The notes beneath the pieces were generated by a model. It was not told the DNA's origin. It saw nothing but the letters and a program-made list of their open reading frames with translations, and did no database searches. Below are positions 18,301-31,600 of a stretch of 64,000 bases of DNA, piece after piece. The position numbers were made by a program, and so were the translations under genes. This DNA is from Saccostrea cucullata (lineage: Eukaryota): positions 62,001 to 126,000 of the forward strand of contig NW_026925910.1 of NCBI RefSeq assembly GCF_032062105.1. The letters run 5' to 3'. Numbering within the stretch: the stretch's first letter is position 1; each line of letters starts with the position of its first letter.

Positions 18301-21300
18301 AATTTAACATGAATTTATCATGTAATGAGTAAAATACATGTAAATCTTACAACACAAAATCTCCTAAAAGGAATGTCCATGTCATCTGGTATTGGCTTAT
18401 CCTCTGAAAGTAAAGAATAAGGACACTTTAGTTTAAAACTTTCCTGTTTTCGTGGAATTTAAAAAATCTAGATACATTTGTATGTGTGCACTTCAGTGAA
18501 ACGCACATATGCAGCAGAATTTGGTATCTTGAACCCCAATATCATGAATACAGTGGACCTTCAGATATCCGGATGCTTCAGTATCCGGACGCTTTTTCAT
18601 CGGGACGGAATTTTTAAATGTTATATTGTTTTGTTTAACTGGTGATTCAGGTATCCGGACGCTTCACATATCCGGACAAATTGACTAGGAACCAAAGCGT
18701 CCGGATAAATGAGGCTCCACTGTACCATGTCAAGAGTGATTTTGAATTTCCAACCCCTCAGTCTTTAAGTATTTTCCCTGGATATTTTGAACCTTTGAAT
18801 ATCTCAAATTGTCAAACCAGCCTTCATTAGACCTACCCAGCATTAATCGGCCCCCTAGATGAGTTTTTTTTTTAAGACCTACCCAGCATTAATCGCTCCC
18901 CTAGATGAGATTTTTCATCAATACAGAGATCTCGTCCTCCTAATGTCTGCATCTTCTTGTTGAGCATATCAAACACAGTGATCCACTTCAGAGAGTTCGA
19001 TGTTTCTATTGGCAGCTGAAACTGTTATTCAAATAAAATTTAGTATCTAAGCATACTTGTTGCTTGAAAGCGTGAGAGGAGGTTTACTGTAATGTAAATG
19101 TACACACACACCTATGAAGTGAAATGGATGTACTGATTCCTGTAATTTAAATGTTGTAAAACTTACAGCATTTTCGGTACTGTAACATTGCCACAGTAAC
19201 GATCCATGTACATTACAGCTCTGGCTGGCTCCAGTTGTTACGACAATGGGCAGAGAAATCGTCTGTAAAATTATTATAAATAAGGAAATAGAGTTAAAAT
19301 TTAAGTAGATCCTTCAAAACAAAGCTCTTCACATATTTCACCACTCTGAATTTCACAAATATGTTTTTCAGATTTTCATATTAAATATGCAATATATGTA
19401 GTGTATTTGTAGTGGGAGGAAAATTCCAATCAACCCTTATACTTACTGCTACAGGTATATCCTGTTCTGCGACCTTGACCCGAGTGGTGAAGACAATTCT
19501 AAATTTATCTTCACAGACTTGAACATCGGGCTTTCTCTCAAACTTCTCTATTTCCATTTTCTTAAAAGAAGCCAAGGCCTTCTTTTTCTCAAAAGTGGAT
19601 TCGTCGGTTTTGGCTTTTAGTCTGATCTCACAAGGACTGTCCCAATTCCCACTGTGAAACTTCTCATTGACCTCTGACTCGTTACAGAACTGTGCTTTCA
19701 CTTTCCCTTTACAATCAATGTTATCACAGGCCAGAAGTCTACAATTTCAAAAGTACCGTATGCATGTATCAAATACAAATATTTCGTTATTAAATATTAT
19801 AATGGATCCTTTTGTGACATGGCTGGTATTGTCAATAAATTTGACTTGTACAAACTTTTAGAGTCTAAAAATAAGGTTGCTAACAGATTAACAATCTCAA
19901 TACCTTGGACCACAATTTGATATATTTAGACAGCTTACCTTACAGAGCCGTAGAACTTGGGACATCTAAACTTCTGATTGGCTGTCTCCTCTCCCCCTTC
20001 CTCTGCCTCTTTATTCCTCTTTTTAGAGCCAAGTTCCACCTTTATGATGTGCTTCTGTTGTTCCGTCACAACAAAGGAACTATCAAAATAGAACCAGATA
20101 AAACTAGAATGTCCAAACGGGACAAAATACCCCCCGTTGGGTTTTTCACAAGTGCTCAATCATGAATATTTTATGGACCTAAGATAAGAGAGAAATGCTA
20201 AAACATTTTTAGTGCAAATGTAATTGCTCATTATATTTTTTATAAATGAAAGAAGGCGCAGCCTAATTAAAAACATGAGGCCCATGGGCCACATCTCTCA
20301 CCTGAGCACTAAGGGTAGGAAGAAGTAGAAAATGGCTTTTTATTGTAAAGTTTAAATCCAAAAGTAGTCCCATGACCAATCATGGATTTGCTATTTTTTA
20401 GAAAATGATTTTTACAGAATTTTCCTATATATATCTTTAAAAACTTTAGTCGGCCATTTTGGCCCCGCCCTACCCCTGGGGGGTCATGATTTGAACAAAT
20501 TTGAATCTACACTACCTGAACATGCTTCCATATAAATATGATGAATTATGGCTTCCTGTACCAAACATTCTAACAAATGCTCATGAGCTGCTCATGAGAC
20601 TCACATGAGAATCAAGTAAGAATTGCATGCAAATTAGGTAGAATTGCATTTTGCTCATGTGCAGATTGTTAGTCTTTACCCATACCAAACCATTCTCACA
20701 ATTTGCTCATGAGCAGCTCACGTGAGGACTAACCAGATTTCCTCACCTGAGTTGCTCACGTGAGTCTCATGTGCAATTTAACATGCAAATTAGGTAAAAT
20801 GCTCACGTGAGCAGGGTTCTGCACATAAGCATTTTTTGCTCACGTGAGGAATCATTTTGCTCACTCAGAATATTGCTCACGTGAGGCTCATGAGACTCAC
20901 GTGCAACAATTGCTCACTTGAACAAGTAACAATAGAACAATTAAAATTCAGATTACAAACATTATATAATTATATATGTAATTTTAAATTTGATTCATCA
21001 ATTACGTTTTAAATACTCTTGAGCAACATGTACATGTAAATAGATGTATGCATGCATAATTATGTTCAGTAAACTTCATATTTTAAACTTAAAATGAAAT
21101 AAAAAATTAAATTATTAATTATGTACAGTACACATCAATCAAAGTATAATTATCTAATAGTTCCATTTCCAGGAGATTAACATCCGATGTAAATGTCCAG
21201 TCAACATTTTTGACTGCACTTTGTCTAGTACTAGATGGACTAAAATTGTCTTAAAGTTGTCTTGGAGGCTAATAGATGTTTCTGCCTTTACTGCATGAAT

Positions 21301-28600: not shown

Positions 28601-31600
28601 GTACATTGTTCATTGTTAAACAGTCAGATTTTTTTTTTTTACAAAATGTTAAAATTTTGTTAGATTTTGACATAAATAAACAGTGTTAAATTTATGCAGA
28701 ATCGAGAAGATTTATCAATGGTATGATATTTCCCAAGCTGAACATTTAACAATTAACGTCATAGAGACGACTAGGGGACTTGGGATTCCTCTACAAACAC
28801 ATTTCTACAAAGCAGTATTTAGTCAAAACATGGGTGTGAAAGGTGTGAATTTCTGACGACTTCAAGATACCCGGAGTTGTCCGTGCGTGACGAGCGACCG
28901 GCAGACAAGCAATTAGGTTAAGTAGAGCAGAAAATTGCCCCGATGTCGACACATACCAGGTAAATTTTGCTCTTGGGACTCAAAATATACGTCGAGATAA
29001 GCGGGGTAGTCGACATTACCGAGGTCGACATATCAGAGTTTTTGCAAATCATTTATATACTAAATAATGCCGGGACCGCGGATGGACGTCGACATATCCC
29101 AAGTTGTCGACATATCCGATGTCGAGATACCGAAGTTTACCTGTATCAAATCAAAATTGCATAAATTTTGCATTTTTGGATGTACAGTTTTTGTTGGTTA
29201 ATTGTGTGACTTTGCCTTACTTAAAGACAACATTTGTTGAGGTGAGCTCTGTAATCTCTGATTACCTATGTTTTCTTCCAGTGACCTTGAACTTCCCCAA
29301 ATGAACTTGGGTCAAGGTCATGACACACCCTTAGGTCATGAGCAATCTTTGCGTGAAATGAAAACCTACCAAGTTTATCCATAAGAAAGATATGGACCGG
29401 ACACGTTTGCACAGACAGACGGACAGACAGCTAGATGGACGGACAGGCTGATTCCTATATACCCCCCCCCCCCAAACTTCATTTGCGGGGGGTATAAATA
29501 TTACACATTTATATCACACCTTCATCTCATACATGTAGCTGATGTATAGAAATACAGAATTGTAAAATTCTGTATAATTATCAGTCTCACCTCTGTAGAA
29601 GCCTTTCAAAGCATTTTTTGAGAGTACCCCCAATGCTGTGTGTGACATCAGTTGCTGCTAACAATTCAAGTTTAGGCAGGTGATACTGTAAAATATCATA
29701 GAGGATCTGTCCAAGCCAGGAATACCTGAAAAAAAGTATTTTTATTAAAACATATGTTAAACATACATGAACATGCAAAAAGATTTTTCTCATTTCGTAG
29801 AATACATGTGCCTGTGTTTAAAAATCATTCATAAATACAGTTTTAAAGCCATTCATAACTCAATCATTGTAAAAATATTTTCAAATACATCTTCCAGAAA
29901 ACATTGTTTGCTGTACCTAACATACTGCATGTGCATATGTATTTATCATTTGGATCTGTATGCTACATATAAGAGACTTTCGATACTTTACAGTCTGCTG
30001 TACCATGGAACATTTTTAAAATTAAGGACCTCAAAATATTGAAGTTGGAGCCTTCAACAGTCTCTAGTACATAACAGTCATTTAAGAGTGACATAATGAC
30101 ATACCCCCTCTCTACTTCAGTAGGAATCGGTGGTCTGTGGTCCACCAGGTCCACATAGAACAACTGCAGCTGTTTCTTAAAATCGGACATCTTCCTGGAG
30201 AGAATGTTCTCTGCTTCTAGGGACTTCGTCTCAATTTCTTGCAGGTTATTGGTGATATCCTGATGAAGCACCTGAAAGGTTACACAAAATGGTATTAAGT
30301 TTCATATAGTTGTCTATGTACATGTATAATAAGCTACTGGATAATTCTAATAAATGTATAAAGCATGCATGGACAATAAATAAAGAATGCTACCCAGTGT
30401 ATCAATTACATGTATGAGTTTAGTTTTATCCCTCTTGTGGCCTTATCTTAGCCCATGGAGTCATGGATAAAAAAAACAAGAGGCCCATGGGCCACATCAC
30501 TCACCTGAGAAGTTTTGACCATTCTGTTCTTTACCAGATTTCCCCCTTGTTATACATAATGCATCCCCACCCTACCCCACTGATCATAATTTAGACATTT
30601 TGAAATCTACACTACCCCATGATCCTTCCATGGGCACATATGTTTCAGCTTTTTTGGCCCAGTGGTTCCTGAGAAGAAGATTTTCAAATATTTTTCCTAT
30701 ATATTTCTATTTAACACTTTGATTCCCTATACTGGCCCCGCCCTTCCCCCGGGGGTCATGGTTCCTACAATTTAGAATTTACACTACCCAAGCATGCTTC
30801 CACATAAGCTTCACTTTTTCTGGCCAAGTGGTTCTTGAGAAGAAGATTTTCAAAGATTTTTCCTATATACATGTATTTCTATATAAAACTTTGATACCCC
30901 ATTGTGGCCCCGCCCTTCCCCCGGAGGTCATGATGTGAATAATTTAGAATCTACATTATACCAGGATGCTTCCACATAAGTTTCAGCTTTTCTGGCCCAG
31001 TGGTTCTTGAGAAGAAGATTTTCAAAGATTTTTTCTATATATTTCTATATAAAACTTTGATTCCCCATTGTGGCCCCGCCCTTCCCCCGGGGGTCATTAT
31101 TTGAACAATTTAGAATCTACATCATACCAGGATGCTTCCACATAAGTTTCAGCTTTTCTGGCCCAGTGGTTCTTGAGAAGAAGATTTTCAAAGATTTTTC
31201 CTATATATTTCTATGTAAAACTTTGATACCCCATTGTGGCCCCGCCCTTCCCCCGGGGGTCATGATGTGAACAATTTAGAATCTACACTATACCAGGATG
31301 CTTCCACATAAGTTTCAGCTTTTCTGGCCCAGTGGTTCTTGAGAAGAAGATTTTCAAAGATTTTTCCTATATATTTCTATGTAAAACTTTGATACCCCAT
31401 TGTGGCCCCGCCCTTCCCCCGGGGGTCATGATGTGAACAATTTAGAATCTACACTATACCAGGATGCTTCCACATAAGTTTCAGCTTTTCTGGCCCAGTG
31501 GTTCTTGAGAAGATTTTCAAATATTTTTCCTATATATTTCTATATAAAACTTTAATTCCCCATTGTGGCCCCGCCCTTCCCCCGGGGGTCATGATTTGAA

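What the first reader, a model, noticed from the sequence alone, without database searches (positions are those of the whole stretch)
20080..29590. Four-level nested transposon stack expands a ~115-bp intron to 9.5 kb
HINE-146 (20101-29497) contains HINE-166 (holding EnSpm within EnSpm), a Harbinger-like MITE, and a third HINE (holding a mariner MITE). That is 7 elements from 4 superfamilies, and most junctions restore the host sequence on removal. Removing everything leaves ~115 bp. The outer element begins only ~21 nt from the 3' splice site, so the branch point may now come from the element. This suggests HINE arrays act as landing pads for further insertions.
Basis: partly seen in the sequence, partly recalled or inferred. 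Interest (0 to 1): 0.7.

Follow-up and report, generated by a model that had tools for sequence, protein, structure and literature searches.

The report
Seven nested transposons inside STAT intron
Seven small non-coding jumping elements really are stacked inside a normally 117-base intron of a STAT gene in a likely oyster genome, but a sample of other insertions shows no general pull towards such repeats, so this is ordinary pile-up whose one oddity is an element that likely hopped into itself and left a perfect 4-kb mirror repeat.

Summary
Observation confirmed. A second copy of the locus in the same assembly lacks 20101-29497 and has a 117-bp intron, spliced in contigs of three public runs; the host gene is a STAT. 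Seven elements, four levels; six of seven junctions restore the host. The outer ends belong to one HINE family. The landing-pad idea fails as a general rule: 7 of 82 TIR-element and 13 of 122 HINE flanks lie in HINEs, against 7.7% background. One A-run in HINE-146 may be a weak hotspot (5 of 86). A host-derived branch-point candidate survives at -20, so an element-derived one is not needed; the element does add an in-frame AG 24 nt upstream. No read confirms that junction, and EnSpm membership is unproven. The scan noted similar 6-8-element stacks on other DNA of this genome. New member of a known kind; interest 0.3.

The parts
19940..20079 (-). Exon of a STAT gene downstream of the intron (start of the DNA-binding region)
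   Evidence: Next exon matches PF02864 STAT_bind at the cut-off, E 7e-6; contigs of X1, X5, X6 leave the window at 20081; 139 of 140 identical to the second copy
20080..29590 (-). GT-AG intron, 9,511 bp; 117 bp in the second copy of the locus
   Evidence: spliced join in contigs of X1, X6, X7 laid on the second copy
20099..20099 (-). Host-derived A of a yUnAy branch-point candidate at -20, kept in both states (candidate only)
   Evidence: consensus recalled; no lariat data
20104..20105 (-). AG supplied by the HINE 3' end, 24 nt upstream of the acceptor; use would add 8 codons in frame (untested)
   Evidence: open frame 19935-20159
20101..29497 (-). Level 1: HINE with 146-bp central repeats, about 1.29 kb without its guests; 5' hairpin and microsatellite at the 29497 end, 3' module at the 20101 end
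   Evidence: absent from G000:C5971
20269..25738 (-). Level 2: HINE with 166-bp repeats, 1.37 kb without guests, in the A-run next to the HINE-146 3' module
   Evidence: 79 of 86 relatives are empty at this run
20555..24649 (-). Level 3: non-autonomous TIR element (EnSpm-like), TT duplicated, in a 166-bp unit; split into 123 bp and 1,923 bp by the inner copy
   Evidence: 20 of 22 family copies have a 2-bp duplication
20679..22723 (+). Level 4: identical inverted copy (2,045 bp), TA duplicated; with the outer copy it forms a 4.1-kb palindrome (1,923-bp perfect arms around 125 nt)
   Evidence: nearest other copy 2.4% divergent
22724..22726 (.). Duplicated TA plus one more A; net 3 extra bases at the inner site, resembling an excision footprint (inferred)
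   Evidence: Unique in G000
25911..27002 (.). Level 2: Harbinger-like non-autonomous element, 1,092 bp, TGA duplicated, in a 146-bp unit
   Evidence: 21 of 23 relatives with both ends have a 3-bp duplication, 18 of them TTA/TAA
27720..29274 (+). Level 2: third HINE, 354-bp deletion derivative of a 1.2-1.6-kb family with about 147-bp repeats, in a T-run of a 146-bp unit
27945..29143 (.). Level 3: mariner-like non-autonomous element, 1,199 bp, TA duplicated
   Evidence: 22 of 25 relatives with both ends are flanked by TA/TA
29591..29726 (-). Upstream STAT exon (far end approximate)

Best explanation
Seven non-coding transposons sit nested in one short STAT intron, and they likely arrived by ordinary serial insertion into tolerated intron DNA, the last step likely being a local hop of one element into its own copy. 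Order (shown by nesting): HINE-146 entered the T-run 21 nt upstream of the acceptor; HINE-166, a Harbinger-like element and a third HINE entered it; a TIR element entered HINE-166 and a mariner-like element the third HINE; an identical inverted copy entered the TIR element. Each element used its family's usual target (T-run, 3-bp TWA-like, TA, 2-bp), so no special attraction is needed (shown by family tallies; rolling-circle and cut-and-paste mobilisation by partners elsewhere is inferred). The inner copy likely came from the sister chromatid at the same locus; the 3 extra bases likely record an excision and re-entry, or imprecise repair, at that site (inferred, about even odds). Splicing likely still uses the old acceptor, because its polypyrimidine tract and a -20 branch candidate stayed on the exon side (inferred).
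For: Empty 117-bp intron in the second copy, spliced in three runs; a contig of run X19 leaves the window at exactly 20100. Family-typical target duplications: 20 of 22, 21 of 23, 22 of 25. No enrichment at junctions: 7 of 82 and 13 of 122 against 7.7%. Nesting also runs the other way: a 156-bp-repeat array sits inside a 3,042-bp copy of the TIR family. With roughly 0.15-0.4 guests per HINE-146, three direct guests are expected in 0.05-0.8% of copies (the rate is my rough reading), and HINE-like segments occur at 66 per 400 kb. Inner and outer copies differ at 0 of 2,046 bases while the nearest of 22 full copies differs by 2.4%. Three family copies lie within 9 kb on C23296, two with different duplications, as local hopping would give (described in PMC3878927, passages).
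Against: HINE cover 300-600 bp from insertions is 13-27%, about twice background, and the A-run used by HINE-166 holds a HINE in 5 of 86 copies (p 0.01-0.03 against a rough 1.5-2%), so targeting is not fully random. No laid contig bridges the TIR junctions at 20554/20555 or 20678/20679 among the pieces listed, so the palindrome rests on this assembly. A single clean hop does not give the 3 extra bases. The second copy differs by 1-10% in exons and 14% in the intron, much more than other twin loci here (598 of 600), so it may be a paralogue or a distant haplotype rather than the sister allele. No autonomous partner was found. No RNA is known to come from the filled allele.
Confidence: 0.78

Rival explanations
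1. HINEs are landing pads in a narrow sense: HINEs prefer particular T/A-runs inside resident HINEs, such as the run next to the HINE-146 3' module, so stacks grow faster than chance.
For: 5 of 86 exact-motif copies carry a HINE end at this run, from four sequence types and with different flanks; two more with variant motifs (L169, L177) and the window itself. L159 and L175 share 598 of 600 flank bases, one empty and one filled. HINE cover near insertions is raised.
Against: Site chosen after seeing the data; expectation (1.5-2% per long run) is a rough estimate; twin haplotigs were not removed from the 86. Overall junction counts are not raised. Four of the six guests are TIR elements with other targets.
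Confidence: 0.35
2. General landing pad: HINE arrays attract all kinds of transposons, for example through chromatin or DNA shape.
For: Three direct guests in 1.29 kb of HINE-146 and six in all.
Against: 7 of 82 TIR flanks in HINEs against 7.7%; the interval excludes more than about 2.2-fold. The window was picked because it is extreme.
Confidence: 0.07
3. The 4.1-kb palindrome is an assembly or polishing product (fold-back read, or arms made identical by polishing).
For: Zero differences over 2,046 bp; no independent contig bridges its junctions among those listed; 3 unexplained bases.
Against: Both switches fall exactly on element ends, both copies have a 2-bp duplication as in 20 of 22 relatives, the interrupted site is intact in the inner copy, and the 166-bp unit resumes in register. 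Fold-back reads have no reason to respect these ends.
Confidence: 0.08
4. The inner copy came from another donor and was made identical by gene conversion between the arms, or the structure arose by alternative (two-chromatid) transposition followed by an inversion between the 123-bp arms.
For: Alternative transposition makes inverted duplications in maize Ac/Ds (10.1101/2020.01.07.897926, abstract). A private 3-base change in an older outer copy would explain the extra bases.
Against: Conversion would have to cover both arm pairs completely, and the insertion would have to hit the private change by chance (about 5 in 2,045). My working-out of two-chromatid products gives other arm orders unless a second event is added (inference).
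Confidence: 0.12
5. The insertion rewired the 3' end of the intron: the branch point now lies in the HINE 3' end and the element's AG at -24 is used, adding 8 residues ahead of the STAT DNA-binding region.
For: The element adds a pyrimidine-rich stretch and an AG in frame without stops; a second candidate at -15 in the empty copy is changed in the window.
Against: The -20 candidate lies between the new AG and the old one and is host-derived; no yUnAy match in the adjoining 50 nt of the element. Contigs of X1, X5, X6 stop at 20081, not 20103, though their genotype is unknown.
Confidence: 0.12

Closest known systems
Cg_HINE elements of the Pacific oyster (PMC7492417; parts 1-3 of 7 read) and HINE/DINE-1 (PMC4067079; passages)
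   Same: Subterminal inverted repeats, 5' hairpin, GTCY-type microsatellite, central arrays of 146-147 and 166-167 bp, 3' palindrome, T-run targets without duplication. That paper also reports HINEs in introns and inserted into other repeats.
   Different: Sequence identity to the published consensus elements was not tested. The parts read give no rate of insertion into HINEs; here it is measured and is near background.
Nested and double insertions of transposons (PMC5932611; passages)
   Same: Nested insertions in opposite orientation with both junctions intact; repeated use of one target site.
   Different: Here the two copies are identical, the inner one sits 123 bp inside the end, and the site carries 3 extra bases.
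Local hopping and gap repair from the sister chromatid in cut-and-paste transposons (PMC3878927; passages)
   Same: Copy next to the donor, donor kept; footprints after excision, with hairpins on the flanks in hAT elements.
   Different: Hairpin-type excision for this family is recalled from EnSpm/CMC chemistry, not shown; the family's transposase is unknown.
Mu killer (PMC3440606; abstract) and Ac/Ds composite insertions (10.1101/2020.01.07.897926; abstract)
   Same: Inverted duplication of a transposon, about 4 kb, placed where a host promoter reads through it.
   Different: Non-coding element in an animal intron, no transposase sequence in the arms, no small RNA or silencing shown.

Membership tests
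HINE (non-autonomous Helentron) | Subterminal inverted repeats at both ends | tested here: met
   Exact inverted matches of 10, 8 and 13 nt in the three elements
HINE (non-autonomous Helentron) | 5' hairpin and 3' palindrome | tested here: met
   3' hairpins in all three; 5' hairpin in HINE-146 and the third HINE, none folds in this HINE-166 copy
HINE (non-autonomous Helentron) | Insertion in a T-run, no clear target duplication | tested here: met
   4+3 A against 5 in the empty copy; the other two sit in A/T-runs
HINE (non-autonomous Helentron) | Microsatellite and central tandem array | tested here: met
   the third lost its array, relatives keep about 147-bp units
HINE (non-autonomous Helentron) | Rep/helicase partner with the same ends; identity to named Cg_HINE families | not tested
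   No such search or alignment was run
EnSpm/CACTA (CMC) | 2-5-bp target duplication | tested here: met
   2 bp in 20 of 22 copies; range from PMC12730594 passages
EnSpm/CACTA (CMC) | Short terminal inverted repeats with arrays of subterminal motifs | tested here: met
   13-nt imperfect ends; repeated 9-11-nt motifs near both ends
EnSpm/CACTA (CMC) | 5'-CA..TG-3' termini (most members, PMC12730594) | tested here: not met
   Ends are CCC..GGG. That some animal members end in CCC is recalled; the paper was not held. Filed as EnSpm-like only
EnSpm/CACTA (CMC) | Autonomous partner with a Tnp2 transposase and the same ends | tested here: inconclusive
   54 PF02992 matches in G000; 12 loci of about 3.5 kb and 20 stretches of 6-10 kb (7 of them around places also among the 12 loci) share no end or motif with the element
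PIF/Harbinger non-autonomous element | 3-bp TWA-type duplication and terminal inverted repeats | tested here: met
   21 of 23 with 3-bp duplication, 18 TTA/TAA; G-rich-start inverted ends of about 30 bp
PIF/Harbinger non-autonomous element | Partner encoding transposase and Myb/SANT protein | not tested
   No search run
Tc1/mariner non-autonomous element | TA duplication and inverted ends of about 28 bp starting CAG | tested here: met
   22 of 25 TA/TA; ends. Signature recalled and in PMC3878927 table
Tc1/mariner non-autonomous element | DDD/E transposase partner | not tested
   No search run
Mu killer-type silencer | Long inverted duplication of transposon DNA inside a host transcription unit | tested here: met
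   1,923-bp perfect arms in the STAT intron; gene spliced in other runs
Mu killer-type silencer | Arms match the transposase transcript | tested here: not met
   No Pfam match in the one element frame scanned, longest stop-free frame 71 codons; no match to the transposase loci tested
Mu killer-type silencer | Hairpin RNA gives small RNAs and silences the family in trans | not testable with these tools
   Only assembled contigs of other samples were offered

The most novel reading that the evidence does not exclude
A transposon that hopped into itself made a natural 'killer' allele in an animal: each STAT pre-mRNA from this allele carries a perfect 1.9-kb hairpin that feeds small RNAs against the family's ends (and its unknown transposase partner) or trips double-stranded-RNA sensing whenever this immune gene is induced. 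The 3 extra bases would be a direct record of an element re-entering its own excision footprint.
Probability: 0.1. Interest if true: 0.65.

Novelty: new member of a known kind. Interest (0 to 1): 0.3.

Why it matters
As it stands it is a clean, datable example of transposon pile-up, and it gives a first small measurement that HINE arrays do not draw in TIR elements (7 of 82 against 7.7%), with at most a site-specific HINE-in-HINE bias. The self-inserted copy matters more: if real, an expressed STAT gene carries a perfect kilobase-scale RNA hairpin in one allele, a ready natural test of whether self-insertion can start silencing of a DNA transposon family in an animal, as inverted duplications do in maize.

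Tried and rejected
General landing pad: tested with junction flanks and rejected. Hotspot inside the TIR element: a non-G base after the site occurs only in the window (1 match, against 39 consensus matches); from the other side 12 matches, 11 ending in the same C variant (9 fetched: all point variants) and the window, so no second footprint or self-insertion at this site was found. Autonomous partner: none in the PF02992 loci tested. Guests inside complete HINE-146 copies (3 of 40): not used, because copies with long guests drop out of a 1.5-kb window. Autointegration circles and two-chromatid transposition were worked through on paper and give other arm orders. Coding remnants: 66 short frames, 5 of those in the stack region scanned, no Pfam match. 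Literature: 10 searches; none returned a study of insertion rates into oyster HINEs or of an identical inverted self-insertion in a mollusc; most subscription papers and Repbase are not held, and supplements of PMC7492417 (consensus elements) were not opened. PMC5753468 passages gave nothing useful. Look-ups of earlier scan notes by sequence and by words found nothing on this TIR family.
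Full report
Check of the observation. The region holds tandem arrays of 166 bp (24644-25456) and 146 bp (27003-27724), inverted ends at 25907/27006 and 27942/29146, and two perfect inverted pairs, 20555-20677 with 22601-22723 and 20678-22601 with 22727-24650. Peeling the elements in a script restores the 166-bp unit after the outer TIR element (TT duplicated), the 146-bp unit after the Harbinger-like element (TGA) and after the third HINE, and the third HINE after the mariner-like element (TA). Relatives found with only the 20105-20268 end continue directly into the sequence that resumes at 25739, then into 146-bp units in 16 of 18 scored and reach the 29497-type end in 10 of 18 within 1.5 kb. 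So the two outer ends are one family, and the count of seven elements at four levels holds.

The empty site. The own genome (1.17 Gb, 23,869 contigs) has two candidates for the flanking DNA. The second, C5971, aligns to 19826-20106 and then straight to 29493-29784. Its intron is 117 bp, against 114 bp left in the window after removal and 9,511 bp as it stands. Contigs of runs X1, X6 and X7 (three studies; kind guessed or not on record) join the two exons across exactly this intron, and a contig of X19 follows the window to 20100 and leaves it there, as an empty site would. The neighbouring exon matches STAT_bind (PF02864, E 7e-6, at the cut-off). Caveat: C5971 differs by 1-10% in four exons and 14% in this intron, so it may be a distant haplotype or a paralogue.

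What the elements are. The three HINEs have subterminal inverted repeats, 3' hairpins and T-run ends; two keep the 5' hairpin, as described for HINE/DINE-1 (PMC4067079, passages). The third is a 354-bp deletion derivative of a 1.2-1.6-kb family (19 relatives). The Harbinger-like family has 3-bp duplications in 21 of 23 copies with both ends, the mariner-like family TA/TA in 22 of 25, the 'EnSpm' family 2-bp duplications in 20 of 22. The last has CCC..GGG ends, not the CA..TG that most CMC-type elements have (PMC12730594, passages), and shares nothing with the PF02992 loci tested (12 short loci and 20 longer stretches out of 54 matches). It is EnSpm-like, not a shown member. Such non-autonomous rolling-circle and TIR elements are known sources of structural variation in oysters (10.64898/2026.02.10.705023, passages).

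Landing-pad test. I built a HINE library from 202 arrays and their shared ends and masked 40 stretches of 10 kb at fixed round coordinates of long contigs: 7.7%. One outward flank per copy was scored. TIR families: 1 of 25, 2 of 29 and 4 of 28, together 7 of 82 (p=0.44; dropped: the window's own copies, 1 locus without a recognisable end, 4 twin flanks). HINE families: 5 of 62, 6 of 41 and 2 of 19 (24 of 146 flanks dropped as twins; the first two sets are partly both ends of the same elements), together 13 of 122 (p=0.14). Against my reading: HINE cover 300-600 bp away is 13-27%, so insertions cluster regionally, though the library was built partly from these loci and the background came from long contigs. 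Also against it: of all 86 copies with an exact motif before the A-run that HINE-166 used, 79 are empty, 5 carry a HINE end and 2 are one rearranged twin pair. A rough expectation is 1.5-2% (685 runs of 7 or more per 400 kb; 5 of 32 HINE-146 targets that long), p 0.01-0.03, but the site was chosen after the fact. Earlier scan notes describe 6-8-element stacks elsewhere in this genome, one calling them ordinary and two proposing a bias for element heads (unchecked notes); the two HINE-in-HINE sites here are not in a head, one is next to the 3' module and one in an array unit.

The self-insertion. The inner copy (2,045 bp) and the split outer copy differ at 0 of 123 and 0 of 1,923 bases; the nearest of 22 full copies differs by 2.4% plus gaps. 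The simplest source is the outer copy itself: excision from one chromatid, insertion into the sister, a form of local hopping (PMC3878927, passages; nested opposite-orientation insertions in PMC5932611, passages). This step is inferred. Removing the inner copy and one TA leaves three bases more than the consensus site, which the inner copy itself keeps; the change is unique among 39 consensus matches and 12 matches from the other side. The extra bases read as the complement of the left flank plus loss of one base, the pattern of hairpin-type footprints (recalled), so an excision and re-entry at the same spot is my lead reading, imprecise repair the alternative. No independent read covers these junctions.

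Splicing. The element sits in the T-run 21 nt upstream of the acceptor. A yUnAy match (consensus recalled) with its A at -20 is present in both states and that A is host DNA; a second match at -15 in the empty copy is changed in the window; the element adds an AG at -24 whose use would add 8 codons in frame. Contigs of X1, X5 and X6 stop at 20081, but whether those animals carry the insertion is unknown. The branch-point claim is therefore open and not required.

Comparison and verdict. The stack is a new instance of known elements nesting in the known way. The palindrome resembles Mu killer (PMC3440606, abstract) and Ac/Ds composite insertions (10.1101/2020.01.07.897926, abstract) in being a transposon inverted duplication under a host promoter, but it has no transposase sequence and no RNA evidence, so it is not filed with them. 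Ten literature searches returned no measurement of insertion into oyster HINEs and no such self-insertion in a mollusc, within a library that lacks most subscription papers. Interest 0.3; the killer-allele reading has about 0.1 probability and would merit 0.65.

Noticed in passing
G000:C5971 (L016-L018) against window 19529-42697: The second copy is colinear over 23 kb but only 77-92% identical in non-coding blocks and differs by many transposon-sized gaps in both directions; exons differ by 1-10%. Distant haplotype or paralogous STAT copy.
   Followed up: partly
L307 (G000:C23296:51500-60500): Three copies of the TIR family within 9 kb, same orientation, 86-91% alike, two with different 2-bp duplications: a likely older cluster of local hops.
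   Followed up: partly
L202 and L201: HINE-146 ends inside HINE-146 at the same A-run; in L202 a whole copy is nested and the host resumes, and another HINE-146 5' end lies just upstream.
   Followed up: partly
L159 and L175: Twin loci (598 of 600 flank bases): one HINE-146 is empty at the A-run, the other holds a 166-type HINE, a nested insertion caught as a polymorphism.
   Followed up: yes
L025 (also L009, L053): A 3,042-bp copy of the TIR family with a 156-bp-repeat array inside it: nesting in the reverse order.
   Followed up: no
window 20555-20557 and 22721-22723: Both window copies, and L019, have one terminus changed from the family's GGG to AGG, yet the inner copy moved with it.
   Followed up: no
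window 14159-14955, 30471-31938, 34747-35466, 36650-37998: Further HINE-like arrays (165-166, about 150 and 156 bp) in or near the same gene, so this gene takes such insertions repeatedly.
   Followed up: no
window 4660-5373 (+): 237-codon open frame whose end looks like a small heat-shock (alpha-crystallin) domain; by eye, not scanned.
   Followed up: no
L131 (G000:C1896:30001-40000): A HINE-like 112-bp piece recurs every 1.2 kb through the whole 10 kb: a long tandem array with a 1.2-kb unit.
   Followed up: no
window 18549-18724: Small element with 30-bp inverted ends starting TA-CAG, mariner-like.
   Followed up: no
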